From a virus (taxonomy: Duplodnaviria > Caudoviricetes): a DNA stretch of 64,000 nucleotides. The translations under genes and the position numbers were made by a program. Below, one piece after another: positions 44,865 through 58,814 of this stretch. Numbering within the stretch: the first letter of the stretch is position 1; each line of letters starts with the position of its first letter. The stretch lies in the IMG/VR virus record IMGVR_UViG_3300025840_004398; one strand, 5' to 3'. The notes under the pieces were generated by a model, which was not told the origin of the DNA, ran no database searches, and saw only the letters and a list, made by a program, of their open reading frames with translations.

Positions 44865-44904
44865 ATAGAGTAATTTTATATATTTGTAATTGGAAATTAT
44901 TAAA

Positions 44905-45774: not shown

Positions 45775-46462
45775 TGAACTTATCGATGAACTAATTCAAG
45801 AAATTGAACAAGAATTAGATGAAACAAATGCAACAGGCAATATTGCTGGGTATAATGTGCCTGGTGCTTTTTCTAATGGTGGTTCTAAAGATAAAAAAAG
45901 AAAGAAAAAAATCTCAACTCAATTTGGAATGAAAATTGTTGGTAAAATCGATGAAGATGGAATCAACGAAGCAATAACAAAAATCTCTTCTTCTAACTTT
46001 AAAAAACTTGAAGCAGGTATTAAGAAAATAAACCCAAGAATTAAAATTTCTTTAAACTCATCTGCACCTGGTGGATTTGAAATCCAAATACCAGATGATA
46101 GTAAATGGGAACTACATACTGATAAAGTTCAACAACTAACTACCAAAATTACAGGTGACCATAGAAATGGTAGAATCTTTTACGAAGGTATCAATGAAGC
46201 TAAAGTAAAAAGACCAGTAAATCGTTGGTTAGAATTAAAAAACGATGAAACCATGCATCCTCACAAGAAGATGGCAATGGGTTTAAAAGAATTAAAATAC
46301 CAATTACGAGAAGTAGAGAAGTTTTTCTCTTGGTACAATAAAATCAAAACCATGAACGAGTTGGACTCTCAGAACTATTGGAAAAGAACAAATAATCATA
46401 TTTATAAGATAAAGGAGAGGTTAATCAACATCGCCAAAACTATAAAGGAAATCGAAAAATGA
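45752..46462 (+). CDS. Putative internal head/prohead core protein
   Basis: GTG start with GGAG 7 nt upstream. Acidic leader ending ELDE, then TNATGNIAGYNVPGAF; two internal GINEA motifs. Confidence 0.6.
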   Translation: MSMERYLNELIDELIQEIEQELDETNATGNIAGYNVPGAFSNGGSKDKKRKKKISTQFGMKIVGKIDEDGINEAITKISSSNFKKLEAGIKKINPRIKISLNSSAPGGFEIQIPDDSKWELHTDKVQQLTTKITGDHRNGRIFYEGINEAKVKRPVNRWLELKNDETMHPHKKMAMGLKELKYQLREVEKFFSWYNKIKTMNELDSQNYWKRTNNHIYKIKERLINIAKTIKEIEK

Positions 46463-46779
46463 AAATATCAAGAGATAGATTAAAAGAAATCGTTAGAGAA
46501 GTGATGGTTGAAGAAACCGAATATCAAGCATTCTTCAAAAAAGCATTAGAAAAAGCTGGAAAATCAATTCCACAAATGTCTGATGAAGAAAAGAAGGCAT
46601 TCTTTAATAAAATCGATGCTACTTGGAAAGGTAGAGGAGAAAAGAACGAAAGATTTGGTAGAGGGCACGAAGGACCTACATTTGGTTCTGCAGATGAACA
46701 AGTATCTGAATTAACAGATGCTCAGAAAAAACTACCACCAGCACTTCAAAAGGCAATTGAGAAAAAAGAAAAAAAATAA
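46459..46779 (+). CDS. Putative internal head protein
   Basis: MKISRDRLKEIVREVMVEE leader; ends in ELTDAQKKLPPALQKAI. Confidence 0.6.
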   Translation: MKISRDRLKEIVREVMVEETEYQAFFKKALEKAGKSIPQMSDEEKKAFFNKIDATWKGRGEKNERFGRGHEGPTFGSADEQVSELTDAQKKLPPALQKAIEKKEKK

Positions 46780-46956
46780 ATGACAAAAAGACAATTGTAT
46801 GATATTATCAATGAAGAAATCGTTAATGTTAAAAAAGGCAAGATTAACGAGGAAATCACGAATGAAGATGAAAAACTCATTCGTGAATTGATACGTCAAG
46901 AGGTATCTGCAATTTTCTTTGATTTGTTTAAGAAACGTAAAATGTGGGGAGCATAA
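46780..46956 (+). CDS. Small hypothetical head-module protein, 58 aa
   Basis: Hand-translated: MTKRQLYDIINEEIVNVKKGKINEEITNEDEKLIRELIRQEVSAIFFDLFKKRKMWGA. Abuts the upstream TAA and overlaps the protease ATG (TAATG); not in the ORF track. Confidence 0.7.
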   Translation: MTKRQLYDIINEEIVNVKKGKINEEITNEDEKLIRELIRQEVSAIFFDLFKKRKMWGA

Positions 46957-47546
46957 TGAGTAACTTACTAATAGAAACCAGATTATTCGAAGGTAGAGTA
47001 AACGAAGATAGTAGTGGAAGAACTATTGTTAAGGGTATTTTACAAAGAGCTGGTGCAGAAAATCAAAATGGGAGAATCTATCCAAAGGATATTCTTGAAA
47101 GAGAAGCTCAAAAGTACGAAACTCTTATCAAAGAAAGACGTGCTCTTGGTGAATTAGACCATCCTGATTCTTCAGTCATCAACCTAAAGAACGTATCTCA
47201 CAATGTAAGAGAGATTCATTGGGATGGTGATGATTTAGTTGGTACAGTAGAGATATTACCTACACCAAGTGGAAACATCTTAAAAGAATTATTAAAAGCA
47301 GGTATCCTATTAGGTATATCATCTCGTGGTATGGGTTCAGTAGAACCACTATCAGGTGGTAAAGTACAAGTAGGAGAAGATTTTGAGTTAATAGGTTGGG
47401 ATTTTGTATCTAACCCATCAACTCATGGTGCTTTCATGACACCAATGAACGAATCGATTAATAAACAATTAAAAGAACAAGTTGTTTGTGGCGATTATTG
47501 TAAAGCACAAGATATGATGAGAGAAATTATAACTGAATTAAGTTAA
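46956..47546 (+). CDS. Prohead maturation protease (T4 gp21-like)
   Basis: NQNGRIYP, LGELDHPD, GISSRGMGS, WDFVSNPSTHGAFM. Track start 46944. Confidence 0.95.
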   Translation: MSNLLIETRLFEGRVNEDSSGRTIVKGILQRAGAENQNGRIYPKDILEREAQKYETLIKERRALGELDHPDSSVINLKNVSHNVREIHWDGDDLVGTVEILPTPSGNILKELLKAGILLGISSRGMGSVEPLSGGKVQVGEDFELIGWDFVSNPSTHGAFMTPMNESINKQLKEQVVCGDYCKAQDMMREIITELS

Positions 47547-47548
47547 TT

Positions 47549-47737
47549 ATGGCATTTTCAATACAAGACTATATGTCTAAAAATAAAATTAAGTTAGGAA
47601 CTGTTACCAAAGAAGTTGGTGATAATCCCTATAAAGGTTACAATGATATTCGTAAAACGAATTATGATGTAAAACTAACTGAAGATGGGAAGTTAGACCT
47701 TTACACACACAAAACTGAAACAAAAACATATAAATAG
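47549..47737 (+). CDS. Hypothetical protein, 62 aa
   Basis: Fills the gap 2 nt after the protease stop; contains a KLTE motif. Confidence 0.55.
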   Translation: MAFSIQDYMSKNKIKLGTVTKEVGDNPYKGYNDIRKTNYDVKLTEDGKLDLYTHKTETKTYK

Positions 47738-47745
47738 GAGTAAAT

Positions 47746-47889
47746 ATGTCAGATTTAACATTAGGTGGTTCAAAGACACATCAAGGAAATAACACAACAC
47801 ATACAGATTCATCTATTGGTGGAAGTAAGACACATAAGGGATATCAGGCATCTCATTCCCCTTCCACACTTGGTGGTTCAAAAAAGTAA
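47746..47889 (+). CDS. Small repeat peptide, 47 aa, (L/I)GGSK x3
   Basis: SD AGGAG, then MSDLTLGGSKTHQGNNTTHTDSSIGGSKTHKGYQASHSPSTLGGSKK (hand-translated; not in the ORF track). Confidence 0.7.
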   Translation: MSDLTLGGSKTHQGNNTTHTDSSIGGSKTHKGYQASHSPSTLGGSKK

Positions 47890-47908
47890 TTTTAAATAGG
47901 ATAGGATT

Positions 47909-48712
47909 ATGATTAAATTAGGTGGATTAGTAACGTTAAAACCAATCAATGAGGTAGAATATACCCACATTGGATATGGTAAATATAAAGAAAAGGGTAA
48001 AGAAAAAGACCCTCAAGCAGTAACCTATCAAAAAGATGATAATGGTAAATTCACACCTATTTCATCACACGCAGCGGCAGCGAAGGGAGGTGATTCCTCT
48101 GCCGGAAAAGATAAGCCTAAAGTGAATATCTTCGATAAACCTAAAAAAGATAAAGAAGAACCTAAGAAAGATGGTGGTGATGACATATCAACTCCTAATT
48201 CAGTAGCAGGAACTGGTCAAGCAGACCCTAATGTTAATAAGGCAGTTCGTAAAGCAGCTCAGAAAGCTGGAATTACTCCAGGAAAATTAGGTAAAGAAGA
48301 ATACGAAAAGAAAATGGCTCAAGCAGCATATGAAGCCCTAACTGATGCTAACTTCCATACTGAAGCAAGATGGTTGATTGCAGATTTAGAAGGTAAACCA
48401 GAGTTAAGAGAGAAGCCAGAATATCCATCCTTTGATGATAAAGATTATGATGAAAAAATAAAAGCAATTAGAGATAAGTACTATTCTCAATATGCAGATG
48501 ATGTTGATGAAGATGCATATGAATTAGGAGTTAAATCATCTCAAGAAGCTGGATGGGCTGGTGCTACTGCAATTGAAGGTTTGGTATTCGATTTGAAAAT
48601 GAATGGTTCACATAAATTAGCAAACACAATATTAAAATCTTTCAAAGATGCAAATTCATCTCGTAACGAAGGAAGATTAAAAATAGGAAACTTATTACCA
48701 GAGGTAAATTAA
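47909..48712 (+). CDS. Putative internal head protein
   Basis: Leader MIKLGGLVTLKPINE, Lys/Asp-rich linker and helical domain. Confidence 0.6.
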   Translation: MIKLGGLVTLKPINEVEYTHIGYGKYKEKGKEKDPQAVTYQKDDNGKFTPISSHAAAAKGGDSSAGKDKPKVNIFDKPKKDKEEPKKDGGDDISTPNSVAGTGQADPNVNKAVRKAAQKAGITPGKLGKEEYEKKMAQAAYEALTDANFHTEARWLIADLEGKPELREKPEYPSFDDKDYDEKIKAIRDKYYSQYADDVDEDAYELGVKSSQEAGWAGATAIEGLVFDLKMNGSHKLANTILKSFKDANSSRNEGRLKIGNLLPEVN

Positions 48713-48713
48713 A

Positions 48714-49100
48714 ATGATAAAATTAAAATCACTTATTCAAGAAGGAACTCATTCTCATGTTGGTATTATTGAACCAAATGGAAAGATTACTTCTGTTTAT
48801 ACTCATTACGATGGTTATCCTGAAAACATGAAACCTGCAATTAAACACCATTTTAAATCTGATAAAGATGTAAAAAATTATATCAAAAAAGGTGGTGCTA
48901 CTGGTATTTACAAAGACAAAGAAGTAGATAGATACTATGGAAGTGGGGGATTTGTTGCAAATGGAAGAGTAAATAATATTAGTGATTATATGCAACAAGC
49001 AGATGAAAAAGGTGGAGCCGATTGGATTTATCTTTATAATACTGCTAAAAAGAAATGGTTTTATGGTAAATATGGAAAACCACTAAAACCACTATACTAA
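48714..49100 (+). CDS. Putative internal head protein with YxHxDGYP domain
   Basis: Leader MIKLKSLIQE, then SVYTHYDGYP...WIYLY, a motif recurrent in phage hypothetical proteins. Confidence 0.6.
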   Translation: MIKLKSLIQEGTHSHVGIIEPNGKITSVYTHYDGYPENMKPAIKHHFKSDKDVKNYIKKGGATGIYKDKEVDRYYGSGGFVANGRVNNISDYMQQADEKGGADWIYLYNTAKKKWFYGKYGKPLKPLY

Positions 49101-49113
49101 AAGGAGAATAGAA

Positions 49114-49872
49114 ATGAAATTAACCCAACTCATAAAAGAAAATGAAGAAAGACCTTTATCTACTGAGGTAAAGAGACACTTCCTTGAAATCGTTTCTACT
49201 TACAACAAGTACCAAGAATCGATGGATAGAAAATCTGATATTATCAAAGTAGCAGAAACCCTTGGTGGTATTACTGAAGCTGCTAGAACACTTGCAATCA
49301 AAGAAGCAGGAGATTGGTTCGATAAACACACAGTTAAGAGAAACATGAGTGAATTGGATAAGTTGGGTAAACAATTCGATAAAGTTGCTCTTGAGGCTCG
49401 TGCACTTGACCAAAGAATGGCAGGATTGTACGAAGATATGGGACATATCCTTTCAAGATACTATAAGTTTGGTGAAATCACAGAGGACCAAATGAAACAA
49501 AGATTAGGTATCAAAGAATCTAAAGATGGTGGTTGTGGATGTGGATGTGGCTGTGGTGGTAACAAATCAGTAAACGAAGAAACAATCACAGAGCAACCAG
49601 TAATGATTTCTAAAAGAACAGAAAGTGGAAACATTGTAACTACTTTAAAAGAAGTATCTGATTTAAACGAAGAAGAAGTTAAACTTTATGAGTTTGGTTT
49701 AAAGGTTGAAAAAGTATTGATGAGTGAAAAATCTTGTCCAACTGATGCTTCTAAATGGTCTTACTACAAAGGACAAGCTAAAAAGAAATTCGATGTTTAT
49801 CCATCTGCATACGCTAATGGTTGGGCTGCAAAACAATACAAATCAGCTGGAGGTGGTTGGAAAAACTGTTAA
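49114..49872 (+). CDS. Putative internal head protein (coiled coil + basic C-terminal module)
   Basis: SD AAGGAG; leader MKLTQLIKE; internal GIKE, SVNE and LNE motifs; C-terminal KKKFDVYPSAYANGWAAKQYK..GGGW. Confidence 0.6.
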   Translation: MKLTQLIKENEERPLSTEVKRHFLEIVSTYNKYQESMDRKSDIIKVAETLGGITEAARTLAIKEAGDWFDKHTVKRNMSELDKLGKQFDKVALEARALDQRMAGLYEDMGHILSRYYKFGEITEDQMKQRLGIKESKDGGCGCGCGCGGNKSVNEETITEQPVMISKRTESGNIVTTLKEVSDLNEEEVKLYEFGLKVEKVLMSEKSCPTDASKWSYYKGQAKKKFDVYPSAYANGWAAKQYKSAGGGWKNC

Positions 49873-49882
49873 GGAGAGAACA

Positions 49883-51787
49883 ATGGCATCAGTAGTAGGT
49901 AAAACAATTTTTTCAGATGGTAAAGGTAAACTGTTCTTCGGTTATTACAAAACCGATGATGCTGTTGAATTTGTAGATTACAAAACTTGGAAGAAACTTT
50001 CTTTCAAAGATGTATCCAAAGGTGATACCAACAAAGAACGAGTAATCAAAGCAATCGTAAAGAACCAAAAACAATTCAATAAGAAAGTTGATTTCAATAT
50101 GTGGGCTAAGAAACAAAAAAGAAGTTTCGAGGACACTATGGATTGGTTTATCCAAAATGGTTGGATTAATAACGTTACCAAAAGAGGAATTAAAGAATCT
50201 GTTGATGTATTATCAATAAACGAAATATTAGTAATAGTAGATAAGTTTGATAAAAGAAAACAAGATTACGGTAAAATTTATTGGAAAGATGGTGGTAGAG
50301 GACCAGGTGATGGTGATATCAACAAGGCAAAAAAAGAATTTGCTAAATTGAGTAAGAAACACAAAGGTTTATCTCTCGTATCAGTTGGTAGAAATAGCAG
50401 GATGTATGATGTAATGGATGAATCAGTAAACGAAGCAATGAAACCATCACAAGTTCGTTCAGCAATTTCAAAAGTTAAAAAAGGACTAATGAGAAAGTGG
50501 AAACAAAAAGGTGGATACGAAAACTTTGGACAAAAAGAACTTTCTCAAATGAAAGATAAGTTTGATTACAATCCATATGGTTCACCTGATGAAAGACAGA
50601 TTTCAAAGATGTTAGATGGATTTGATGATTGGGCAATGAACTACGATGGTAATATGAGAGAAGGTAAAAAAAGATTCAAAAGACAAGATGGTATTGGTAA
50701 AGCAAAATACACTATCTCTTACCACGATGGAAAAAAGAAACACAAAGATGGTAGTGATTTCTTTGATATGAAAATCTTCAAAAACAAAAAAGATTTAAGT
50801 GATTTTGTTGGTTCACTTGTAAAACAAGGATATAAACTAACAAATGAATCAGTAAACGAAGTTAAATATGATACTGCTCTTGCTGACTTTAATAAAGAGT
50901 TAGAAAAAAACTCTGAAGTTAGAAAAGCAGCAAAACATTACAAAAAATCTACAAAAGATGTTGTAAAGGCATTGCAATCAAAAATTAAAGTAAATAGATA
51001 TAGTGATAAATCTATTAAACAAGTATCTATTGATTATAAAGAAGATGGGCCACTTTCAAGTAAAGTATCTATAAAATTATCTAAAGATTACAAACAAAAT
51101 GAATCAGTAAACGAAGATAGAAATTCTAATATGTTCTATGTTCTTTACCAAAAGAAAGGTGTCTTTGGTAAACCTGCAGCAGCTGGATATAAAGATAGAA
51201 AAGATGCTGAAAAATTTGCTAAGAGTTTAGGAAATAATCACAACACAATGATTCTTGATAAACAATCAATGAAGAATGTAAAAGGTGTTGATGTAAACGA
51301 ATCAGCAAGTAAAGAAGCAATGGGTATTGCAGCATTAACTGGTACTCGTGGTTCTGCGGTTCAAGATTTCATTGATAAAAATAGAATCAATAGTAAGAAA
51401 TTATTTAAAGCATTAAAATCAGCAAACCTACAAGGTAGAATTAACTTCGCTAATGGATTAGCTGGTAAACCTGGTAATCCAAACGCAAAACTTACAATCA
51501 AACTTTTTGGTGAATCAGTAAACGAAGCTAAATTTGGTTACAAAGACTCTAAAGCTTCATACATCAAGAAACACAAAGATGAGTATAAACAAGCAGAGAA
51601 AATGAATAATGGGAATGAAAAACGTTTCTACGATTTGTTACAACAAATGGAAGATAAAGTAGGACATCCTAAAACTATGTTATTTATCTCTAATGCACTT
51701 CGTGGTTATGGTGTTGATATGTACAAAGACCCAAAGATTAAAAATCCACAAGATGCACAAGAGGCTCTTTTCTTATTGAGTAAATAA
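49883..51787 (+). CDS. Modular polyprotein-like putative internal head protein (ESVNE-linked modules)
   Basis: SD AAGGAG before ATG 49883 (track start 49724 overlaps the previous gene). About eight small domains separated by ESVNE/INE/VNE/MRE motifs. Confidence 0.65.
   Translation: MASVVGKTIFSDGKGKLFFGYYKTDDAVEFVDYKTWKKLSFKDVSKGDTNKERVIKAIVKNQKQFNKKVDFNMWAKKQKRSFEDTMDWFIQNGWINNVTKRGIKESVDVLSINEILVIVDKFDKRKQDYGKIYWKDGGRGPGDGDINKAKKEFAKLSKKHKGLSLVSVGRNSRMYDVMDESVNEAMKPSQVRSAISKVKKGLMRKWKQKGGYENFGQKELSQMKDKFDYNPYGSPDERQISKMLDGFDDWAMNYDGNMREGKKRFKRQDGIGKAKYTISYHDGKKKHKDGSDFFDMKIFKNKKDLSDFVGSLVKQGYKLTNESVNEVKYDTALADFNKELEKNSEVRKAAKHYKKSTKDVVKALQSKIKVNRYSDKSIKQVSIDYKEDGPLSSKVSIKLSKDYKQNESVNEDRNSNMFYVLYQKKGVFGKPAAAGYKDRKDAEKFAKSLGNNHNTMILDKQSMKNVKGVDVNESASKEAMGIAALTGTRGSAVQDFIDKNRINSKKLFKALKSANLQGRINFANGLAGKPGNPNAKLTIKLFGESVNEAKFGYKDSKASYIKKHKDEYKQAEKMNNGNEKRFYDLLQQMEDKVGHPKTMLFISNALRGYGVDMYKDPKIKNPQDAQEALFLLSK
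50420..51526 (+). repeat. Four exact in-frame 15-nt repeats GAATCAGTAAACGAA (ESVNE)
   Basis: Copies start at 50420, 50846, 51101 and 51512; spacings 426, 255 and 411 nt. Confidence 0.85.
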
Positions 51788-52152
51788 TGAAACTCCAAGA
51801 ACTATTTACAGAAATTATCGAAGAAAACAGATGTATCCATTGTGGAAACATTGTTAACGAAGATTTAAAAAATTGGTTTAAATCTAAATGGGTAAACATT
51901 GGTAAAAAAGTTGGTGGAAAGCATCCACCTTGTGGAACAAGTGGTTCAAAGAGTGGATACGCTAAATGTGTTCCAGCTGCAAAAGCAAAAACTATGAGTA
52001 AGAAAGAAAAAGAATCTGCAACTCGTAGAAAAAGAGCAGCACAAAACAAGGCAGGAAGAGGTGGAGTAAATTCACCAGGTCAAGGTAAAAAACCAATAAA
52101 CGTTTCAACACATACTAAAGGAAGAAAATCAGGAACTGGTAAAGGTTCTTAA
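51787..52152 (+). CDS. Putative internal head protein, basic Cys-containing module
   Basis: MKLQELFTEIIEE, CIHC, IVNE, then DLKNWFKSKWVNIG...HPPCG...YAKCVP...RRKR. Confidence 0.6.
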   Translation: MKLQELFTEIIEENRCIHCGNIVNEDLKNWFKSKWVNIGKKVGGKHPPCGTSGSKSGYAKCVPAAKAKTMSKKEKESATRRKRAAQNKAGRGGVNSPGQGKKPINVSTHTKGRKSGTGKGS

Positions 52153-52167
52153 AAATAAATTTATATA

Positions 52168-52175
52168 TATTTATA
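52168..52175 (+). promoter_or_regulatory. TATTTATA putative late-promoter motif for bS21
   Basis: Exact motif 20 nt before ATG 52196. Confidence 0.6.
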
Positions 52176-52195
52176 GTTACACTAAATAAAGGAGA

Positions 52196-52522
52196 ATGGC
52201 AAAAAACAAAACATTGGTATCGGTCAAAGTAATAAAAGGAGATATCAACAGAGCACTTAAAAAATACAAAAGAAGAGTTAACGATAGTGGACATCTTCTT
52301 GAACTACGAGATAGAAAAACTTATACAAAACCCAAAACCATTCGTAGGAAAGCAAAACAACAAGCAATTAGAGAACAACAGAAAGAAACTATTCTTGGTA
52401 AAATTGCTGATGGTGATAATACTCTAAGGTTTTATACAAAAAAGAAAAAAACCAAACCAAATAAACCCAAAAATAACAATAATCAAGAAAAAACCATAGA
52501 AAACTATGGTTTAAAAATGTAA
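52196..52522 (+). CDS. rpsU: Phage-encoded ribosomal protein bS21 with C-terminal extension
   Basis: VSVKVIKGDINRALKKYKRRVNDSGHLLELRDRKTYTKPKTIRRKAKQQAIR fits the bS21 pattern (V...i.RALK.fKr....G...e.r.R..y.KP...Rr); about 45 extra Lys/Asn-rich residues. Confidence 0.88.
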   Translation: MAKNKTLVSVKVIKGDINRALKKYKRRVNDSGHLLELRDRKTYTKPKTIRRKAKQQAIREQQKETILGKIADGDNTLRFYTKKKKTKPNKPKNNNNQEKTIENYGLKM

Positions 52523-52528
52523 TTGATA

Positions 52529-52688
52529 TACTTATATACATAATAACCCACCTCTATGTGGGTTCTATTTTATTGGTTTATGAATATCCACGATTCTATG
52601 TAGGATGACCGAAACGACCAATTAGTTTAATTTATACATTGAAAATCCCTTAATATTTTCACGAATAATAACGAAAGGTAACTTTATT
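52529..52688 (+). promoter_or_regulatory. Variant motif TACTTATA plus structured 5' leader of the scaffold-capsid operon
   Basis: TACTTATA at 52529-52536; hairpins at 52545-52564, 52586-52607 and 52641-52662; outer pairing 52572-52577 with 52618-52623. Confidence 0.45.
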
Positions 52689-53879
52689 ATGGCAAATTCA
52701 AATTTGTTAAAAGAAGCCATCGCTGATGCTAAAGCTGTTAGAGAAACTGCTATTGCTAATGCAAAGATTGCACTTGAAGAAGCATTTACTCCAAGATTAC
52801 AATCTATCCTTTCTCAGAAACTTCAACAAGAAATGGAAGAAGAAGTAACTGAAGAAGTAGAAGATGTAAACGAGGAAGAAGTAACTGAAGAAGTTTCTGA
52901 AGAAGTAGTTAACGAAGAAGAGATTGAAGAATCTACTGAAGAAGTTAACGAAGAAGAAATCTCTGAAGAATCTGAAGAAGTAACTGAAGGTGAATACACT
53001 GCAGAAGGTGAAGAGCAAATCACTGCTGAATCAGAAGAAGTAACGGAATCGGAAGAAGTTGATGAAGCTTTATCTGTAACTGTTTCTGAAACTGAGGAAG
53101 AAGAAGAAGCTGATGTAAGCGAAGAGGCTGAAGAAGAAGGTGATGAAGTTGAAGAAACTTATCACGAAGAAGAAGAATCAGATGAAGATGAACTTGATTT
53201 AGAAGCTATCATCAGAGAACTTGAAGAAGAACTCGATGATGAAGAAGAAGAACAAGTTGCTGATATCGCTGATGACGCTGTTGCAGGTCATGAAGATGAT
53301 ATGCACGAAGAAGAAGAAGAAGAAGCTGGTGAAGAAGAAGCTGAAGAAGCTGAGGAAGAAGCTGGTGAAGAATCTGAAGAAGATTTAGATGAAGAAATCG
53401 ACCTTAACGAAATCCTAAGAGAAATGGGATACGGTGAGGAAGAAGAATCTGAAGAAGAAGTTTCTGAAGAAGTTGTAGAAGAAACTAACGAACTTGATGA
53501 GGTTAAAGCAGAATTGGAAGAAGCAATGTCTACTATCAAAGAACTTAAATCTACTATCAACGAAGTTAATTTGTTAAACGCAAAACTTCTTTACACTAAC
53601 AAACTATTCCGTTCTTATGACTTAACTAACGAACAAAAAATGAAAGTTGTTGAGACACTAGACAGAACTGGTAACGTAAGAGAAGTAAAATTGGTATTCA
53701 GTACATTAGCTGAATCATTCAAGTTTACTGGAACTACGAAAAAACAAAAACAAACTGCTAAAATCAACGAATCATTCGCATCTAAGCCCGTTGCTTCAAC
53801 TGCTCCTACTAAGGAAGTAATTACTGAGTCAACTAACACGATGGCTGAAAGATTTAAGAAATTGGCTAATATTAATTAA
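52689..53879 (+). CDS. Prohead core scaffolding protein (T4 gp22-like)
   Basis: MANSNLLKEAIADAKAVRETA...; very Glu-rich middle; C-terminal LNEVNLLNAKLLY-type coiled coil; immediately upstream of the capsid gene. Confidence 0.85.
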   Translation: MANSNLLKEAIADAKAVRETAIANAKIALEEAFTPRLQSILSQKLQQEMEEEVTEEVEDVNEEEVTEEVSEEVVNEEEIEESTEEVNEEEISEESEEVTEGEYTAEGEEQITAESEEVTESEEVDEALSVTVSETEEEEEADVSEEAEEEGDEVEETYHEEEESDEDELDLEAIIRELEEELDDEEEEQVADIADDAVAGHEDDMHEEEEEEAGEEEAEEAEEEAGEESEEDLDEEIDLNEILREMGYGEEEESEEEVSEEVVEETNELDEVKAELEEAMSTIKELKSTINEVNLLNAKLLYTNKLFRSYDLTNEQKMKVVETLDRTGNVREVKLVFSTLAESFKFTGTTKKQKQTAKINESFASKPVASTAPTKEVITESTNTMAERFKKLANIN

Positions 53880-53904
53880 CAAAATTTATTAAGGAGAGAT
53901 AAAA

Positions 53905-55515
53905 ATGGCAAATTTTGATTTATCTAAACTTATGGAAGGAAAGAACCCACAACAAGTAATGTTGTCTGAGACAAGAGAACTTAGAGGTAAATGGGAACAA
54001 ACTGGACTTCTAGAAGGTTTAAACGAGAGAGAACAGTCTCAAATTTCTGTTCTACTTGAAAACCAAGCAAAACAATTGCTTGATGAGTCAACAGCTACTG
54101 GTACTTCTGCAGGTTCAGAAGAGTGGTCAGGTGTTGCACTTCCTTTAGTAAGAAGAATCTTCGGTGAAATTGCATCGAAAGAATTCGTTTCGGTACAACC
54201 GATGAACTTACCTTCAGGACTTATATTTTATTTAGATTTCAAATACGGAACTGCAACAGGTGGTAAATCTACTGGTGCTGCTGGTTCTTTATTTGGTGGT
54301 ACTGGTGGAGCTACTCCAGCAGCTGGATTCGGTCAAACTCAAGCGGCTGAAAACGGTCTTTATGGTGACGGTGCTTACGGATACACAGTAAACGAAACAT
54401 CTGTAACTGGCAAATCAACTGTATCATGGGGTTCTGCTTCATTGGCTGATGTATCTTATGATTCTTCACTTTCTGCTTCAATTGCAGCTGGTGAAATAGC
54501 AAAAGTTACTATCGCACTTTCTGACTTAACTGGAAACGAAGATAGAGATGCAGTACGTTCATTTAGAATTGCTGATTCAGATATTTCTGATTACTATCCA
54601 GCACATACTTCAGAAGATGGAACAAACATTACTTTCATCGTTAAAGCTGATGGTGCTGCTGACCCAGGTACAATAGATACTATCTATTATTCACTACAAC
54701 CAACTGATATCACAAGAGGTGATTTTGAAGATGCTTCTCCATCTGAACCAGCAACTGATATCGGAATTCCAGAAGTTGACCTTGAATTGAAGTCTGAAGC
54801 AATTGTTGCTAAGACAAGAAAATTAAAGGCAGTATGGACTCCTGAACTTGCTCAAGACCTTAACGCTTACCACTCAATTGATGCAGAAGCTGAATTGACT
54901 TCAATGTTATCAGAGTACATCTCATTAGAGATTGACCTTGAAATCCTTGATATGTTAAAAGCTAACGCTCTTACAACTGAGTACTGGTCAGTAACTTTAG
55001 GTGAAGAGTATGATTCAATCGCAGGAACTTGGTCTAACTCAAGTTCAGCAGCTGCTTACACTAAGAACTCTTGGTTCCAAACTCTTGGTGCGAAACTTAA
55101 CAAAGTTTCTAACAAGATTCACCAATTGACTCTTAGAGGTGGTGCTAACTTCGTAGTTGCATCTCCTGATGTATGTACTATCTTAGAATCAATCCCAGGA
55201 TTTACAGTTTCTGCTGATAAAGATGCTTCATCTTTCGCAGCTGGTGTAACTACTGTTGGTTCTATTGCAAACAGATACACAGTTTACAAAAACCCTTACA
55301 TGACTTCAAACGAAATCTTGTTAGGATTTAAAGGAAGCAACTTCCTTGAAACTGGAGCTGTATATGCACCATATGTACCACTTATCATGACACCTTTAGT
55401 GTACGACCCAACTAACTTCACTCCAAGAAGAGGAGTTATGACTCGTTACGCTAAGAAAATGGTAAGACCAGAATTCTATGGTAAAATCTATGTTAAAGAT
55501 TTAGCTAACCTATAA
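53905..55515 (+). CDS. Major capsid protein (T4 gp23-like)
   Basis: KWEQTGLLEGL, LPLVRR, VSVQPMNLPSGLIF, AKTRKLKAVWTPELAQDLNAYHSIDAEAEL, GAVYAPYVPL, RYAKKM. Confidence 0.97.
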   Translation: MANFDLSKLMEGKNPQQVMLSETRELRGKWEQTGLLEGLNEREQSQISVLLENQAKQLLDESTATGTSAGSEEWSGVALPLVRRIFGEIASKEFVSVQPMNLPSGLIFYLDFKYGTATGGKSTGAAGSLFGGTGGATPAAGFGQTQAAENGLYGDGAYGYTVNETSVTGKSTVSWGSASLADVSYDSSLSASIAAGEIAKVTIALSDLTGNEDRDAVRSFRIADSDISDYYPAHTSEDGTNITFIVKADGAADPGTIDTIYYSLQPTDITRGDFEDASPSEPATDIGIPEVDLELKSEAIVAKTRKLKAVWTPELAQDLNAYHSIDAEAELTSMLSEYISLEIDLEILDMLKANALTTEYWSVTLGEEYDSIAGTWSNSSSAAAYTKNSWFQTLGAKLNKVSNKIHQLTLRGGANFVVASPDVCTILESIPGFTVSADKDASSFAAGVTTVGSIANRYTVYKNPYMTSNEILLGFKGSNFLETGAVYAPYVPLIMTPLVYDPTNFTPRRGVMTRYAKKMVRPEFYGKIYVKDLANL

Positions 55516-55537
55516 TCTTTAGTTTATCATAATTCTT

Positions 55538-55565
55538 AAAAAGGGGACTTCGGTCCCCTTTTTTT
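55538..55565 (+). terminator. Rho-independent terminator after the capsid gene (potentially bidirectional)
   Basis: AAAAA-GGGGAC-TTCG-GTCCCC-TTTTTTT, with a C(UUCG)G tetraloop. Confidence 0.92.
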
Positions 55566-55596
55566 ATTCTACACACTCTCCTTTTTAACTAACTTA

Positions 55597-55604
55597 TATT
55601 TATA
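55597..55604 (+). promoter_or_regulatory. TATTTATA putative late-promoter motif
   Basis: Exact motif just after the terminator, followed by SD AAGGAG and ATG 55639. Confidence 0.6.
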
Positions 55605-55638
55605 GTAGTATAATTGTATAAGTAAAGGAGAGAAATTT

Positions 55639-56790
55639 ATGTCTCAAGCAAGAATTTGGACAGGTTCAACAACATTCACTTCAGGTTCATCAACCCCATT
55701 TGGAATATATGATAGTGATTCATCTTTTCAATCAGACGCACCTAAAGTTGCTTCTTGGTGTGCTAAAAGATTGGGTTACCCAATTATTGATATAGAACTA
55801 CAAGGAGATAATTTCTTTGCTGTATTTGAAGAAGCAGTTTCAGAGTATTCTGCACAAGTAAATCAATTTAATATACGAAACAACCTTGGTTCTCTTGAAG
55901 GAAAACCAACAGGTACAAATTATACTCACCAATCAGTAAATGGTTCTGAATTAAACAATGTAATCACAATCAACGAAGGGTATGGTACTCTTGCAAACGT
56001 TGGTGGTAGAACTGATATTAAAAAAGGATATGTTACCGTAGGAACTGGTTCTCAAGAATATGATTTACAAACTCTTTGGGCAGATGTAAGTGAAAGTGGT
56101 GAAAGAATTGATGTAACCAAAGTATATTACGAAGCAACTCCTGCAATCAATAGATTCTTCGACCCTTATTCAGTAAGTGGACAAGGAACACTTAACTTAA
56201 TTGATGAGTTTGGGTTTGGTTCATTCTCACCAGCAGCACAATTTATATTGATGCCAATTTACGAGGATGCTTTAAGAATTCAACAGATAGAATTTAATGA
56301 CCAATTCAGAAAATCTGCACATACTTTTAATATTGTAAATAATAAAATACAAATTTTTCCAAAACCAACAAAATCATATAACTTATGGTTTGAATACATG
56401 GTTAAAAAAGATTTTAGAGAAAATTCTACTGTTGTATTGGATGGAGTAGTATCAGATTACTCAAACATTGGATATAACTTCGCTGAATACACTAATATCA
56501 ACGATGTTGGTAAACAATGGATTAGAAAATATACACTTGCACTTGCAAAAGAGATGTTAGGTGCAATTAGAGAAAAGTACAATACAGTACCAATTCCTGG
56601 TTCAGAAGTTTCTTTAGATGGTGCAGCTTTAAGAGCAGAAGCACAAACAGAAAAAGATTCTTTAATAGAACAATTGAGAGAAAACCTCAATGAAGTAAGT
56701 AAAAAACAAAGAATGGAGAACGAAGCTGCAATGGTTGACCAACAACAACAAATCATTCAGAAAGTTCCTCTAAACATTTATATAGGATAA
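55639..56790 (+). CDS. Neck/head-tail adaptor protein (T4 gp13-like)
   Basis: KRLGYPIIDIEL...; WIRKYTLALAKEMLG..REKY..VPIPGSEVSLDG..LRAEA. Position directly after the capsid gene. Confidence 0.8.
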   Translation: MSQARIWTGSTTFTSGSSTPFGIYDSDSSFQSDAPKVASWCAKRLGYPIIDIELQGDNFFAVFEEAVSEYSAQVNQFNIRNNLGSLEGKPTGTNYTHQSVNGSELNNVITINEGYGTLANVGGRTDIKKGYVTVGTGSQEYDLQTLWADVSESGERIDVTKVYYEATPAINRFFDPYSVSGQGTLNLIDEFGFGSFSPAAQFILMPIYEDALRIQQIEFNDQFRKSAHTFNIVNNKIQIFPKPTKSYNLWFEYMVKKDFRENSTVVLDGVVSDYSNIGYNFAEYTNINDVGKQWIRKYTLALAKEMLGAIREKYNTVPIPGSEVSLDGAALRAEAQTEKDSLIEQLRENLNEVSKKQRMENEAAMVDQQQQIIQKVPLNIYIG

Positions 56791-56794
56791 AACG

Positions 56795-57355
56795 ATGCCG
56801 AAGTTTTTCAACGCAAAAGATTTGGATTTCATCAAAACTATCTCCGAAGAGATAGTGGATTATGTGGTAGAACAAGCAGTTGTTCTATTCAAGGTATCTG
56901 TTGGTGAAACTAAAACCAATTTATATGGTGAATCGTTGGGAAAAGTTTGGAGAGCCCCTTCTACTTTAATGTGTATTGTGGATAGAGAACCACAAAACAT
57001 TGTTTATGAAGGATTTGGAGCAGATAAAACTCAGACAGTAGAATTTAGGTTCAATATTCAGAGATTGAGAGATACATCTTATTCAGTACCAAAAGTTAGA
57101 GATATAAATGGAACTTTAATACCAACCGAAGCAATCCAAAACACCACAGTTGGTTATCCGGAGATTGGTGATGTTATATTATTTGATGAATCATATTACG
57201 AAGTAGGACATATAACCGCTAACGCATTAGTTGGTGGACAACCTGAGATATACGACCAAGAAAACTCTACATTTGAAGATGCAAGAGCAACTTTAATTTG
57301 TCAAGCAGTTATGGTTAGAAAATCTCAAGTACAAATAGAGGATAGGATTTACTAA
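56795..57355 (+). CDS. Head-closure/neck protein (T4 gp14-like)
   Basis: NLYGES, PEIGDVILF..SYYEV; follows the gp13-like gene. Confidence 0.6.
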   Translation: MPKFFNAKDLDFIKTISEEIVDYVVEQAVVLFKVSVGETKTNLYGESLGKVWRAPSTLMCIVDREPQNIVYEGFGADKTQTVEFRFNIQRLRDTSYSVPKVRDINGTLIPTEAIQNTTVGYPEIGDVILFDESYYEVGHITANALVGGQPEIYDQENSTFEDARATLICQAVMVRKSQVQIEDRIY

Positions 57356-58479
57356 TGGCAGTTGACCCGTTAAGAAAAGTACCCATCAATCGTGGGGAAG
57401 AAATTAAGAGAGAACCTATTGAAATAGGGAAGGGTGTAAAACTCTATGATGTTGATTTAGCAATAGCTGAACACATGATAGATACTGTTGTGCCTACTGT
57501 TGAGGTATTTAGAGAAAAGGTAAAGATACCTGTACTATATGGTAACCCAGAAAGATGGACTTCGGTACAAAAAGAAGGATATCTACGAGATAAGAAAGGT
57601 CAGTTACAGATTCCTTTGATTATGTTTAAAAGAAACTCGATTGCAAGAGATGATTCCTTTGCAAATACAATGAATCGTCATGTTTCTTATTCTAGTGTTT
57701 CTAAATTCTCAAAAAAACATAAATACGATAGATTTTCTCAAATGACTGGTACTCAAAGACCTGTTGAGATTTATGATGTAGTAATGCCCGACTATGTATC
57801 AATTACTTATGAGGTAATGATATGGACCGATTTTACAGAACACATGAATCAGATAGTAGAAGCATTTCAATATGCAACAGATGAGTATTGGGGAGATAAA
57901 AGTGGATTCAAATTTAGAACTCGTATAGATTCTTTCGATAATACTACCGAAGTTGGTGAAGGAACTCAAAGAATTGTTAGAACTTCATTCACAATGGTTG
58001 TAAATGCATACCTTCTACCAGAACAATTTGATAATCGTTCAACTCACAAAAAATCGCTTTCACCAAAGAAAGTTGTTTGGGGTATTGAAACAGATTTAAC
58101 TGGTCTTGGGGGTTCTTCTACAAATAGTATTTCAAAACAAAAAATGTATAATGAATATTCTGATATAATTGATTTTATGTCTATTCGTGGGTCTAAAGAA
58201 GCAACATTCATAGATGCAGACACAGTAAAATTAGAAAATGTAGAGTTACCAAAGTTACCACCGGAATTAAATGGTGTATTTGATACTAACGATTGGTTTA
58301 GAGTTTATATAAATGGAGTATATATTCCACCTACAAAATATACATACAATGGTTCTTATGTAGATAATGAAATTGTATTTAATTTTTCAACAGGTTCATC
58401 AGCAACCACAACCGATTTAGGTTATATACTTGAATCAACAGATGAGTTTGGTGTAACTGGTAAATTTATAGAATTATAA
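57355..58479 (+). CDS. Tail completion/terminator-like protein (T4 gp15-like) with C-terminal extension
   Basis: KIPVLYGNPERW, IPLIMFKR, MPDYVSITYEV, MNQIVEAF; neck-module synteny. Confidence 0.55.
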   Translation: MAVDPLRKVPINRGEEIKREPIEIGKGVKLYDVDLAIAEHMIDTVVPTVEVFREKVKIPVLYGNPERWTSVQKEGYLRDKKGQLQIPLIMFKRNSIARDDSFANTMNRHVSYSSVSKFSKKHKYDRFSQMTGTQRPVEIYDVVMPDYVSITYEVMIWTDFTEHMNQIVEAFQYATDEYWGDKSGFKFRTRIDSFDNTTEVGEGTQRIVRTSFTMVVNAYLLPEQFDNRSTHKKSLSPKKVVWGIETDLTGLGGSSTNSISKQKMYNEYSDIIDFMSIRGSKEATFIDADTVKLENVELPKLPPELNGVFDTNDWFRVYINGVYIPPTKYTYNGSYVDNEIVFNFSTGSSATTTDLGYILESTDEFGVTGKFIEL

Positions 58480-58814
58480 TGGCTATTAAAGATTTAAAAA
58501 AAATATTAGAACAAGTACATGAACCAAATGAATATCGTTTAGTTCCACATGATATGAATCATCCATTATATTGGATATGGAAACTCGAAAATGGTAAGAT
58601 GAAGGATTTGGATTCTTTTTTAATACCTTTTCGTAAGGAACACGCACGTTTTGATATATTTATAAATGGTCAGTATATTTTAGAAAGAGATTATATAACC
58701 GAACAAGTTGGTAAGGATTTTCATATTAAATTCATAAAAGCTAACTTTTTTGGAGCATATGATTTGGAAACTAGTGATGATATAAAGTTAGAAGGAGATA
58801 TAAATTTAGTATGA
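58479..58814 (+). CDS. Hypothetical virion protein
   Basis: Coupled ORF; FDIFINGQY resembles the VYINGVY segment of the preceding gene. Confidence 0.55.
   Translation: MAIKDLKKILEQVHEPNEYRLVPHDMNHPLYWIWKLENGKMKDLDSFLIPFRKEHARFDIFINGQYILERDYITEQVGKDFHIKFIKANFFGAYDLETSDDIKLEGDINLV

What the first reader, a model, noticed from the sequence alone, without database searches (positions are those of the whole stretch)
52168..52522. Phage bS21 plus SD-rich late genes in a largely SD-free host: ribosome reprogramming
Seen: rpsU with its own late motif directly upstream of scaffold and capsid genes. AAGGAG/AGGAG precedes many late starts (40645, 42670, 47746, 49114, 49883, 53905, 55639, 63878) but not the primase. 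Established: in Flavobacterium ribosomes bS21, bS18 and bS6 sequester the anti-SD, with a C-terminal bS21 Tyr contributing, and bS21-encoding Bacteroidota phages with late expression are described. Inference: by my recalled alignment this protein has Arg (QQAIR) at the Tyr position and a long basic tail, so it could free the anti-SD and favour phage late mRNAs. Its own GGAG is only 1 nt from the ATG, so its translation may not depend on SD pairing.
Basis: partly seen in the sequence, partly recalled or inferred. Interest (0 to 1): 0.7.

Follow-up and report, generated by a model that had tools for sequence, protein, structure and literature searches.

The report
Phage bS21 lacking the anti-SD tyrosine
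An uncultured freshwater phage of Bacteroidota carries its own ribosomal protein bS21 in which the tyrosine that these bacteria use to hide the ribosome's Shine-Dalgarno reader is replaced by arginine, and its head genes (but not its early genes) carry Shine-Dalgarno sites, which suggests, without proving, that the phage re-tunes host ribosomes towards its late messages.

Summary
ORF 52196-52522 is a bS21 gene (above the Pfam and TIGRFAM cut-offs). It has its own late motif (TATTTATA, 52168-52175) and terminator, and sits just upstream of the scaffold and Gp23-type capsid genes.

- **Residues:** Arg59 and Glu60 align with Tyr54 and Ile55 of F. johnsoniae bS21, its two contacts to the 16S 3' tail. 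Arg59 is invariant in 123 of 123 family representatives. A conserved 45-residue basic extension follows.
- **SD sites:** Sites occur at 13 of 25 head-module genes (mock window 2), at 0 of 3 early genes and at 0 of 23 genes of the late glycan operon.
- **Host:** The early promoter consensus was found only in Bacteroidota among 185,579 species genomes (20 of 20 hits).
- **Comparisons:** The cultured relative, Flavobacterium phage immuto, has the same late motif but no bS21 and no SD sites. A Tyr-type relative is SD-poor. The complete Arg-long relative has SD on late genes but not on early genes (p=0.006).
- **Leader:** In all 20 family loci, GGAG lies 1 nt from the rpsU ATG. Other genes have 4-11 nt.

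ASD liberation is my best reading (about 0.42) and remains unproven; published Y54A data support it. Against it: Chlorobia lack Tyr54 yet are SD-less, one Arg-type relative is SD-poor, and the independent contrasts are few. This scan reached the same reading earlier on other genomes (e1-5382164, e1-5339665).

The parts
52168..52175 (+). Late-class promoter motif TATTTATA of the rpsU unit
   Evidence: The same motif lies in the gaps before 5252, 14062, 15192, 36316, 39724, 42670, 44890, 55639 and 63878. It is conserved as TA(C/T)TTATA before rpsU in all 20 long-type loci, and Flavobacterium phage immuto has it before its late genes.
52188..52195 (+). SD-like AAAGGAGA that abuts the start codon (GGAG 52191-52194, 1 nt from the ATG)
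   Evidence: -8.8 kcal/mol. AGGAGA-ATG is invariant in 20 of 20 long-type loci. Every other GGAG-led gene in those loci has 4-11 nt spacing. The leader is unstructured.
52196..52522 (+). Phage rpsU: bS21, 108 aa
   Evidence: PF01165, TIGR00030 and phrog_21469. More than 270 metagenomic homologues of 100-112 aa. AF2 model with helices 14-41 and 51-71.
52370..52375 (+). Codons for Arg59-Glu60, at the columns of F. johnsoniae Tyr54-Ile55, the two bS21 contacts to the 16S 3' tail
   Evidence: Alignment. Contacts as listed by Jha et al. (PMC7797042). Arg59 in 123 of 123 and Glu60 in 120 of 123 family representatives.
52385..52519 (+). C-terminal extension (residues 64-108). It has a conserved block (ILGKI.DGD..LRFYTKKKK) and then a Lys/Asn-rich tail.
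   Evidence: L67, I70, G73, K83 invariant; F79 in 119 of 123; Y80 in 116 of 123. The C-terminal domain is 61 aa with net charge +11, against 22 aa and +3 in Tyr-type Bacteroidota bS21. The model shows it disordered.
52545..52574 (+). Terminator-like hairpin plus T-tract downstream of rpsU
52689..53879 (+). Acidic scaffold-like protein (weak SD, AAGG)
   Evidence: Syntenic with the gene upstream of the capsid gene in immuto.
53891..53896 (+). AAGGAG, 8 nt before the capsid gene start
   Evidence: -8.2 kcal/mol. TAAGGAG is conserved before the capsid gene in most long-type loci. The immuto capsid leader is an A-rich, SD-free stretch.
53905..55515 (+). Gp23-type major capsid protein
   Evidence: PF07068, E=4e-76. 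Its RNA contigs are 25-50 times deeper than the flanks in 4 metatranscriptomes.
40645..59176 (+). Head/neck module with SD-led genes (starts 40645, 42670, 45758, 46956, 47746, 48714, 49114, 49883, 52196, 53905, 55639, 57355, 58811)
   Evidence: 13 of 25 starts at -6 kcal/mol or better, against 2 of 25 in the mock window. Includes TerL at 41048 and portal at 43102.
1..121 (+). Two tandem host-type (Bacteroidota sigma-A) promoters at 1-32 and 90-121, ahead of the SD-less primase gene
   Evidence: The consensus has 31 sites in each of two complete relatives. It was found only in Bacteroidota genomes.
141..5016 (+). Early genes without SD: DnaG-like primase, an unknown ORF, and a fused Mre11/Rad50-like protein

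Best explanation
**Shown:**
- The gene encodes a phage bS21 of Bacteroidia ancestry.
- It is a monocistronic late unit inside the head-gene module.
- It has lost both residues through which host bS21 holds the 16S 3' tail (Tyr54 to Arg, Ile55 to Glu).
- It has gained a conserved 45-residue basic extension.

**Inferred mechanism:**
1. Late in infection the protein displaces the weakly bound host bS21 on 30S subunits of a Bacteroidota host, whose ribosomes normally ignore Shine-Dalgarno sites. The extra positive charge would help it compete.
2. Without the Tyr stack on A1534, the anti-SD is at least partly released, as in Y54A ribosomes.
3. The SD-led head mRNAs (capsid, protease-region genes, adaptor and others) then gain an initiation advantage over SD-less host and early phage mRNAs.

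**More speculative:** The phage rpsU leader is short and A-rich, with GGAG only 1 nt from the AUG. Unconverted ribosomes could therefore read it without SD pairing. Converted ribosomes that pair with its SD would sit over the start codon and shut synthesis off. This would be negative feedback, the mirror image of the host rpsU loop.
For: **Identity and ancestry**
- Family membership.
- The best cellular matches are Tyr-type bS21 of class Bacteroidia (41.1 and 40.4 bits).

**Lost contact residues and the extension**
- Arg59/Glu60 lie at the Tyr54/Ile55 columns.
- Arg59 is invariant in 123 of 123 representatives.
- The C-terminal domain is 61 aa with net charge +11, against 22 aa and +3 in Tyr-type cellular bS21.

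**Published experiment**
- F. johnsoniae Y54A ribosomes make 3-fold more protein from a strong-SD template. SD-less translation is unchanged (PMC9976891).

**SD distribution**
- Head module 13 of 25 against mock 2; early genes 0 of 3.
- In the complete relative G001, which has the same bS21 type, host-promoter genes score 10 of 151 (mock 11) and late genes 29 of 172 (mock 7). Fisher p=0.006.

**Host**
- The early promoter consensus matches the Bacteroidota -33/-7 elements (PMC6847099).
- It occurs 31 times in each of G001 and G002.
- Across 185,579 species genomes it hit only Bacteroidota, at chromosomal sites rather than phage sites.

**Comparative pattern**
- Immuto (Flavobacterium host) has the same late motif and no bS21. 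Its late-motif genes have 0 of 37 SD sites.
- The Tyr-type relative G007 scores 16 of 191 against mock 10.
- Arg-long loci score 109 of 220 against mock 7.
- On the capsid tree, the SD-rich Arg-long clade is nested among SD-poor outgroups.

**Leader and expression**
- AGGAGA-ATG is invariant in 20 of 20 loci, against 4-11 nt spacing for all other genes.
- rpsU is covered by RNA contigs in samples where capsid RNA is very abundant.
Against: - Nothing here shows incorporation into 30S subunits or release of the anti-SD.
- Chlorobia bS21 also lacks Tyr54, yet Chlorobia mRNAs are mostly SD-less (PMC9976891). Loss of Tyr alone therefore does not predict SD reading.
- The conserved Phe79-Tyr80 pair in the extension could restore an aromatic contact.
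- G002 has an Arg-type bS21 (shorter, not late, no SD of its own) and almost no SD enrichment (9 of 144 against 6). Locus L034 (Arg-type) has 0 of 18.
- Two loci without a nearby bS21 are SD-rich (L065, L081).
- Only 5-6 phylogenetically independent contrasts exist, and the sign test is not significant.
- The late glycan operon has no SD sites.
- The phage SDs are 6-7 nt long. In F. johnsoniae only an extended SD responded to bS21 loss (PMC9976891).
- The host class is inferred, not shown.
Confidence: 0.42

Rival explanations
1. The phage bS21 replaces or tops up host bS21 but leaves the anti-SD occluded, for example through the Phe-Tyr pair of the extension or the intact bS18/bS6 pocket. Its benefit would lie elsewhere: selecting mRNAs through the diverged N-terminal helix as Chen et al. 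proposed, keeping ribosomes complete and active during infection, or resisting a host shut-off. The SD-like sites on head genes would then work independently of it, for example through the natural bS21-free ribosome fraction or in mRNA stability.
For: - Chen et al. 2022 model (PMC9723584).
- Chlorobia lack Tyr54 yet are SD-less.
- Phe79-Tyr80 are conserved.
- G002 and L034 have Arg-type bS21 without SD enrichment.
- Some loci are SD-rich without a nearby bS21.
Against: - It gives no reason for the invariant replacement of both tail-contact residues in 123 of 123 proteins.
- It does not explain why the SD-rich leaders arose in the same clade as this bS21 type while outgroups and immuto are SD-free.
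- It does not explain the conserved non-functional SD spacing on rpsU itself.
- Y54A alone changes mRNA selectivity in vitro.
Confidence: 0.3
2. The host is not SD-blind. It would belong to a Bacteroidota class outside Bacteroidia (or another lineage) whose own bS21 carries Arg at this column and whose ribosomes read SD. The phage protein would simply mimic the host type, and SD on highly expressed late genes would be ordinary.
For: - Arg-type cellular bS21 with a similar A-V-R-E-Q helix exists in another class of the same GTDB phylum.
- The promoter scan also hit Kapaibacterium MAGs whose bS21 is Arg-type.
- The capsid lineage spans hosts of several phyla: Microcystis, Rhodothermus and Flavobacterium.
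Against: - Early genes behind host-type promoters show no SD enrichment (10 of 151 against mock 11 in G001; 0 of 3 here). That would be odd in an SD-reading host.
- The best cellular matches to the phage core are Tyr-type class-Bacteroidia proteins (41 bits). Arg-type proteins score 30-33 bits.
- The nearest cultured relative infects Flavobacterium and shares the late motif.
- The phage's 32% G+C suits Flavobacteriales.
Confidence: 0.15
3. The protein acts mainly off the ribosome. With its long Lys-rich tail, and its gene next to the internal-head-protein polyprotein and the scaffold gene, it could be a packaged virion or DNA-binding protein. If injected, it could act on ribosomes at the start of the next infection rather than late in this one.
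For: - Gene position between the head-cargo polyprotein (49883-51787) and the scaffold gene.
- Basic disordered tail.
- Chen et al. raise encapsidation as a possibility.
Against: - The bS21 core is under strong purifying selection across the family, including the rRNA-binding helices.
- There is no evidence of a capsid-targeting or cleavage signal.
- It does not explain the SD pattern.
Confidence: 0.08

Closest known systems
bS21-encoding freshwater Bacteroidetes myoviruses (Chen et al. 2022, ISME Commun, PMC9723584)
   Same: - A large aquatic phage whose bS21 gene lies within a few genes of the capsid, protease and portal genes.
- A late-type expression context.
- A Bacteroidota host is inferred.
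- Replacement of host bS21 is proposed.
   Different: - All 61 of their proteins keep Tyr or another aromatic residue at position 54, and the authors conclude that the phage protein works like the host's. Here Arg is invariant and Ile55 is Glu.
[quoted passage not shown] This one is co-oriented with the head genes and has its own late promoter and terminator.
- This family has a 45-residue conserved basic extension.
- They report no SD pattern. In my data, Tyr-type relatives are SD-poor.
F. johnsoniae bS21 and its anti-SD sequestration and rpsU autoregulation (Jha 2021 PMC7797042; McNutt 2023 PMC9976891)
   Same: - Same protein family, and the best cellular matches are of this class.
- Both rpsU genes carry an SD-like element.
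- The Y54A mutant provides the experimental precedent for the proposed effect.
   Different: - Host bS21 is about 64 aa, has Tyr54-Ile55 and a mildly basic tail.
- In the Flavobacteriales-like loci I fetched, the host rpsU has an extended SD (AAAGGAGGT) at functional spacing, 6-10 nt. That SD is read better by bS21-free ribosomes.
- The phage gene has a 7-nt SD only 1 nt from the AUG.
Flavobacterium phage vB_FspM_immuto (MW353175)
   Same: - Nearest cultured relative by capsid (52% aa).
- Same head-gene order.
- Same late motif (CTATTTATAA) before late genes.
   Different: - No bS21 anywhere in its 160 kb.
- No SD sites: late-motif genes 0 of 37, whole genome 8 of 218 against mock 20.
- It lacks the extended early-promoter consensus.
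Pelagibacter phage HTVC008M bS21 and other viral ribosomal proteins (Mizuno et al. 2019, PMC6375957)
   Same: A phage-encoded bS21. According to McNutt et al., the pelagiphage protein was shown to enter E. coli ribosomes.
   Different: - Its host is a proteobacterium that is not known to sequester the anti-SD.
- There is no close sequence relation: tblastn against 50,697 phage records found nothing better than E=2e-3.

Membership tests
Ribosomal protein bS21 (Pfam PF01165 / TIGR00030) | Profile match above the curated cut-off | tested here: met
   PF01165: 40.7 bits against a cut-off of 27. TIGR00030 equivalog: 34.9 against 28.95. PDB bS21 chains match at E=8e-7 to 1e-5.
Ribosomal protein bS21 (Pfam PF01165 / TIGR00030) | Two-helix fold with the KP(S/T) motif between the helices | tested here: met
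   AF2 model with helices 14-41 and 51-71, mean pLDDT 68.5. The motif is KPKT here and KPTT in the family consensus.
Ribosomal protein bS21 (Pfam PF01165 / TIGR00030) | Incorporation into the 30S subunit near the 16S 3' end | not testable with these tools
   Needs ribosome purification from cells that express the protein.
Bacteroidia-type, anti-SD-sequestering bS21 | Aromatic residue at position 54 that stacks on A1534 | tested here: not met
   Arg59 aligns with Tyr54. Arg in 123 of 123 family representatives. Class-Bacteroidia proteins fetched here have Tyr or His.
Bacteroidia-type, anti-SD-sequestering bS21 | Ile55 van der Waals contact to the 3' tail | tested here: not met
   Glu60 lies at that column. 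Glu in 120 of 123.
Bacteroidia-type, anti-SD-sequestering bS21 | Short, comparatively weakly basic C-terminal domain | tested here: not met
   Phage: 61 aa, net +11, pI 10.3. Sixteen Tyr/His-type Bacteroidota proteins: mean 22 aa, net +3, pI 9.6. The pI scale differs from the one used in the paper.
Chen et al. 2022 bS21-phage clades | bS21 within a few genes of capsid, protease, portal and TerL | tested here: met
   The capsid gene is 2 genes downstream. Portal and TerL lie 8-11 kb upstream.
Chen et al. 2022 bS21-phage clades | Gene on the reverse strand, aromatic residue 54 | tested here: not met
   Same strand as the head genes. Arg at the column.
Chen et al. 2022 bS21-phage clades | Transcribed together with structural genes in situ | tested here: inconclusive
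   RNA-library contigs cover rpsU in 3 of the 4 runs laid, where scaffold and capsid contigs are 25-50 times deeper than the flanks. Contigs cannot give levels or exclude DNA carry-over for rpsU itself.
Host-type rpsU autoregulatory leader (McNutt 2023) | Extended SD (pairing below about -13 kcal/mol) at functional spacing from the AUG | tested here: not met
   AAAGGAG, -8.8 kcal/mol with my 9-nt anti-SD, 1 nt from the AUG. Flavobacteriales-like host leaders fetched here have AAAGGAGGT 6-10 nt upstream.
Phage of a Bacteroidota host | Early promoters of the sigma-ABfr type (-33 TTTG / -7 TAHHTTTG) | tested here: met
   Two sites in the window. 31 sites in each of two complete relatives, against 0-2 on the reverse strand. 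The 32-nt consensus hit 20 places in 185,579 species genomes, all in Bacteroidota. Consensus from PMC6847099.

The most novel reading that the evidence does not exclude
A lineage of Bacteroidota phages carries a two-part translation switch.

- **Part 1:** A late bS21 variant has deliberately lost the anti-SD clamp (Tyr54-Ile55 to Arg-Glu) and gained a high-affinity basic extension. It converts SD-blind host ribosomes into SD-reading ones, so that only the phage's SD-led virion mRNAs are favoured.
- **Part 2:** The variant's own mRNA carries an SD jammed against the AUG. Converted ribosomes repress it. This would be negative feedback with the opposite sign to the host's rpsU loop.

The host loop would in turn over-produce host bS21 on the freed anti-SD, which sets up a direct competition for the same ribosomal site.
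Probability: 0.3. Interest if true: 0.88.

Novelty: new variant of a known kind. Interest (0 to 1): 0.72.

Why it matters
**Background.** Bacteroidia are the best-studied case of bacteria whose ribosomes carry an anti-SD but hide it. The only natural use known for the hidden anti-SD is autoregulation of bS21.

**If the reading is true.**
- A phage protein that unlocks the anti-SD would be a natural 'specialised ribosome' made by a virus.
- It would explain why bS21 is by far the commonest ribosomal protein in phages of these hosts.
- It would give a simple genetic handle for switching SD recognition on in Bacteroidia: one small protein, with a ready R59Y/E60I control.

**Testability.** The strains, reporters and cryo-EM pipeline already exist for F. 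johnsoniae.

**If the mechanism fails.** The comparative pattern still needs an explanation: SD-led head genes appear together with this bS21 type, and the SD that abuts the rpsU start codon is invariant.

Tried and rejected
- **Phage records:** tblastn of the whole protein against 50,697 phage records found nothing at E<=1e-3. The core alone gave only remote hits, including Methylophilales phage Melnitz, Salicola phage and huge uncultured phages, at E>=2e-3. No cultured phage with a known host carries this type.
- **Cellular relatives:** A scan of cellular genomes with the family alignment found no relative.
- **Cluster look-up:** It gave no organism names.
- **Cross-phylum comparison:** I meant to compare Bacteroidota with Proteobacteria bS21 using the 'Hyphomicrobiales' MAG as centre. 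That MAG drew the same phylum sample as Vicingus, so no cross-phylum comparison was obtained.
- **Independent contrasts:** The test on the capsid tree gave only 5-6 pairs and no significance.
- **Promoters in other bS21 clades:** The generic Bacteroidota promoter pattern was not enriched in the Leu, Ala or Tyr clades. Only G006 showed a repeated family of sites. I therefore cannot extend the host claim to those clades.
- **Immuto early promoters:** Immuto shows no TAnnTTTG enrichment either.
- **Host clue from sugar-nucleotide enzymes:** Dropped, because they are too diverged from cellular families.
- **Structure prediction:** It added only the expected two helices and a disordered tail. I ran no fold search.
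- **RNA contigs:** Gaps at 51867-52200 and shared contig starts at 52201 are at best a weak hint of a transcript start. Uncovered parts are not evidence.
- **Leaders of the short bS21 types:** My start-codon heuristic failed for about half of them.
- **Complex prediction:** Not attempted, because the partner is rRNA.
Full report
**What is there.** ORF 52196-52522 (+ strand, 108 aa) is a ribosomal protein bS21.
- It scores above the curated cut-offs of Pfam PF01165 (40.7 bits against 27) and of the TIGR00030 equivalog (34.9 against 28.95).
- It matches the PHROG 'ribosomal protein S21' and solved bS21 chains.
- TATTTATA lies at 52168-52175.
- A hairpin plus T-tract lies at 52545-52574, so the gene looks like a monocistronic unit.
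- Downstream are an acidic scaffold-like ORF and a Gp23-type capsid gene. Upstream are TerL, portal and a head-cargo polyprotein.
- The same TATTTATA motif sits in ten intergenic gaps of the window.

**The protein family.**
- More than 270 metagenomic proteins of 100-112 aa are 66-96% identical to it, and 24 IMG/VR contigs encode it.
- In 123 cluster representatives Arg59 is invariant and Glu60 is nearly so.
- The stretch after the bS21 core (I-L-G-K-I-x-D-G-D-x-x-L-R-F-Y-T-K-K-K-K) is as conserved as the core.
- A structure model gives the two bS21 helices (14-41 and 51-71) and a disordered tail.
- The domain after the KP(S/T) motif is 61 aa with net charge +11. In Tyr-type Bacteroidota bS21 it is about 22 aa with net charge +3.

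**The tyrosine position.**
- HMMER aligns Arg59 with Tyr54 of F. johnsoniae bS21 (7jil) and with the Tyr of a second Bacteroidia-type chain. E. coli has Lys at this position.
- Jha et al. list exactly two bS21 side chains that touch the sequestered 16S 3' tail. Tyr54 stacks on A1534, and Ile55 makes a van der Waals contact (PMC7797042). Both are replaced here, by Arg-Glu.
- The phage core is nevertheless closest to Tyr-type proteins of class Bacteroidia (41.1 and 40.4 bits, 43-46% identity).
- It is less close to an Arg-type bS21 that I found in another class of the same GTDB phylum (30-33 bits).
- McNutt et al. showed that F. johnsoniae Y54A ribosomes make 3-fold more protein from a strong-SD template, while SD-less translation is unchanged (PMC9976891).
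- Chen et al. found Tyr or another aromatic residue at this column in all 61 bS21 proteins of their Bacteroidetes phages. They concluded that these work like the host protein (PMC9723584).

**SD sites in the window.** I scored pairing of a 9-nt anti-SD with positions -20 to -1 of each start, and with a mock window at -40 to -21.
- Overall, 14 of 55 starts reach -6 kcal/mol, against 3 in the mock window.
- The sites are not spread over all late genes. The head/neck module (40645-59176) has 13 of 25 (mock 2).
- The late-motif glycan/radical-SAM operon (14062-36271) has 0 of 23.
- The three genes behind host-type promoters (primase, an unknown ORF, an Mre11/Rad50-like fusion) have 0 of 3.

**Host.**
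- The window starts with two copies of a 32-nt element, TTTGGA...TTCGTAT(A/C)TTTG.
- A matrix built from it finds 31 forward sites in each of two complete relatives (G001 276 kb, G002 253 kb) and 0-2 on the other strand.
- It fits the Bacteroidota primary-sigma promoter, -33 TTTG and -7 TAHHTTTG (PMC6847099).
- It could also be read as a fair sigma-70 promoter, so I scanned its consensus over one genome of each of 185,579 prokaryote species. There were 20 hits.
  - Nineteen are titled Bacteroidales, Prevotella, Bacteroides, Bacteroidota, Vicingus or Kapaibacterium.
  - The twentieth is titled Hyphomicrobiales but draws the same phylum sample as Vicingus.
- The hits are chromosomal sites, not phage fragments.
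- The host phylum is therefore well supported.
- Class Bacteroidia is likely but not shown. The grounds are the nearest cultured relative, the ancestry of the bS21 core, the 32% G+C and the SD-free early genes.

**Relatives.** The table gives SD counts at -6 kcal/mol or better against the mock window.

| Genome or group | bS21 type | SD-positive starts | Mock |
|---|---|---|---|
| Flavobacterium phage immuto (160 kb) | none | 8 of 218 overall; late-motif genes 0 of 37 | 20 of 218; late-motif genes 2 of 37 |
| G007 (complete, same clade as immuto) | Tyr | 16 of 191 | 10 |
| G001 (complete) | Arg-long, as here | host-promoter genes 10 of 151; late genes 29 of 172 | 11; 7 |
| G002 (complete) | Arg, shorter | late genes 9 of 144 | 6 |
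| G005 (complete) | Ala | 74 of 251 | 13 |
| Arg-long loci | Arg-long | 109 of 220 | 7 |
| Other Arg/Lys loci | short Arg/Lys | 77 of 307 | 16 |
| Aliphatic loci | Leu/Ala/Val | 89 of 222 | 10 |
| Aromatic loci | Tyr | 9 of 57 | 0 |
| Loci with no bS21 seen | none in locus | 69 of 379 | 7 |

- Immuto has a capsid 52% identical to this phage's, the same gene order and the same late motif. Its capsid leader is an A-rich run with no SD.
- In G001, the difference between late genes and host-promoter genes gives Fisher p=0.006.
- The G002 bS21 gene lies far from the capsid gene and has neither a late motif nor an SD.
- The locus groups come from 80 capsid-related loci. Thirty-seven of them have a bS21 gene 1.4-2.7 kb upstream of the capsid gene. 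The residue at the Tyr column is Arg/Lys, Leu/Ala/Val, or Tyr in four loci.
- On the capsid tree, the SD-rich Arg-long clade is nested among SD-poor outgroups (L032, L033, L034). The immuto clade (no bS21 or Tyr-type) is SD-poor.
- There are only 5-6 independent contrasts, and the sign test is not significant.
- Exceptions exist: L034 and L058 (Arg-type, SD-poor), and L065 and L081 (no bS21 seen, SD-rich).

**The rpsU leader.**
- In all 20 loci of the long type, the leader reads late motif, then GTTACA, then an A-rich run, then AGGAGA-ATG. GGAG is always 1 nt from the start codon, although the proteins are only 68-93% identical.
- In the same loci every other GGAG-led gene has 4-11 nt spacing. 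The five apparent exceptions are mis-called internal ATGs of the polyprotein gene.
- The leader is unstructured.
- It has A at -3, -6, -11 and -12. Baez et al. name A at -3, -6, -12 and -13 as SD-independent determinants, so three of their four positions are matched.
- Flavobacteriales-like host rpsU genes fetched here have AAAGGAGGT at 6-10 nt.
- My inference is that the phage message is read without SD pairing by unconverted ribosomes. A ribosome with a free anti-SD that pairs there would cover the AUG, which would give negative feedback. This step is speculative.

**Expression.**
- Four freshwater metatranscriptome runs hold 72-90% of the region.
- Their contigs over the scaffold and capsid genes are 25-50 times deeper than those over the flanking genes, so this is RNA and not carried-over DNA.
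- Contigs also cover rpsU in three of the four runs (depth 8-121). In one run a contig bridges rpsU and the scaffold start.
- Contigs cannot give levels or ends. This shows only that the region is transcribed where late genes are highly expressed.

**Weighing.**
- The ASD-liberation reading explains five things together: the invariant loss of both clamp residues, the extra basic extension, the co-appearance of SD-led head genes, their absence from early genes, and the odd rpsU leader. It also has an experimental precedent.
- It is not shown. Chlorobia lack Tyr54 but are SD-less. Phe79-Tyr80 might substitute for the lost stack. The phage SDs are shorter than the extended SD that responded in F. 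johnsoniae. The comparative signal has few independent events.
- I put ASD liberation at about 0.42.
- A non-liberating ribosomal role is at about 0.30, an SD-reading host at about 0.15, and an off-ribosome or packaged role at about 0.08.

**Novelty.**
- Phage bS21, its place beside head genes and its late expression are known.
- A Bacteroidota-phage bS21 family without the aromatic clamp, tied to SD-led virion genes and to an SD abutting its own start codon, is not described in any paper I could find.
- Other agents of this scan reached the same reading on two other genomes (e1-5382164, e1-5339665). That is not independent support.

Noticed in passing
window 51787-52152: A 121-aa basic protein with a CxxC pair (weak DUF5872 match, phrog_23735 at 1.7e-15) ends just before the rpsU late motif. 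Its 3' end (…ggtaaaggttcttaa) is conserved upstream of rpsU in most long-type loci, so it travels with the bS21 gene. Its function is unknown.
   Followed up: partly
window 63864-63880: The SD of the gene that starts at 63878 is part of AAGGAGAATGTAA. This is the same AGGAGAATG nonamer as at rpsU, here forming a start-stop mini-ORF (ATG-TAA) 4 nt before the real start.
   Followed up: no
L170, L174, L178, L179, L186-L189 (genomes G073, G193, G165, G081, G097, G101, G133, G205): A class of GTDB Bacteroidota other than Bacteroidia has a cellular bS21 with Arg at the Tyr54 column (…KKAVREQRRRQRENY). Its rpsU gene has an extended SD-like leader, GAAAGGAAGTGAG. The class could not be named with these tools.
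   Followed up: partly
L151 (CAZIIZ010000008.1, titled uncultured Hyphomicrobiales MAG; G010): A phylum-level search centred on this genome drew the same genome sample as one centred on Vicingus serpentipes. The MAG is therefore placed in Bacteroidota by GTDB and is probably mislabelled in its title.
   Followed up: partly
window 14062-36271: The 22-kb glycan/radical-SAM operon starts with the late motif, but none of its 23 genes has an SD. Most of its genes overlap or abut, which suggests translational coupling. SD use therefore marks the head module, not late transcription as such.
   Followed up: partly
window 52441-52714: In four metatranscriptome runs, contig depth jumps from about 10 to more than 140 inside the 3' end of rpsU (near 52441-52480). 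That is upstream of the terminator-like hairpin at 52545-52564 and of the hairpins another reader flagged at 52529-52688. This may mark a strong scaffold/capsid transcript start or a processing site.
   Followed up: no
window 1858-5016: A single 1052-aa ORF joins an Mre11-like phosphoesterase domain (residues 5-191) and a Rad50/SMC-like ATPase domain (residues 380-618). These are usually two genes (gp47 and gp46) in T4-like phages.
   Followed up: no
G005 (IMGVR_UViG_3300009104_001210, 216 kb; locus L050): A complete relative whose bS21 has Ala at the Tyr column uses SD at 29% of all genes (74 of 251, mock 13). That is more than the Arg-long phages. It showed no enrichment of the Bacteroidota promoter pattern, so its host is open.
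   Followed up: partly
G006 (locus L067), 814-7727: Five near-identical sites, TTTGATCTTT…AATGCCTTATATTTG (19-nt spacer), within 7 kb. This is a different, phage-specific version of the Bacteroidota-type promoter, in a clade with a short Arg-type bS21.
   Followed up: no
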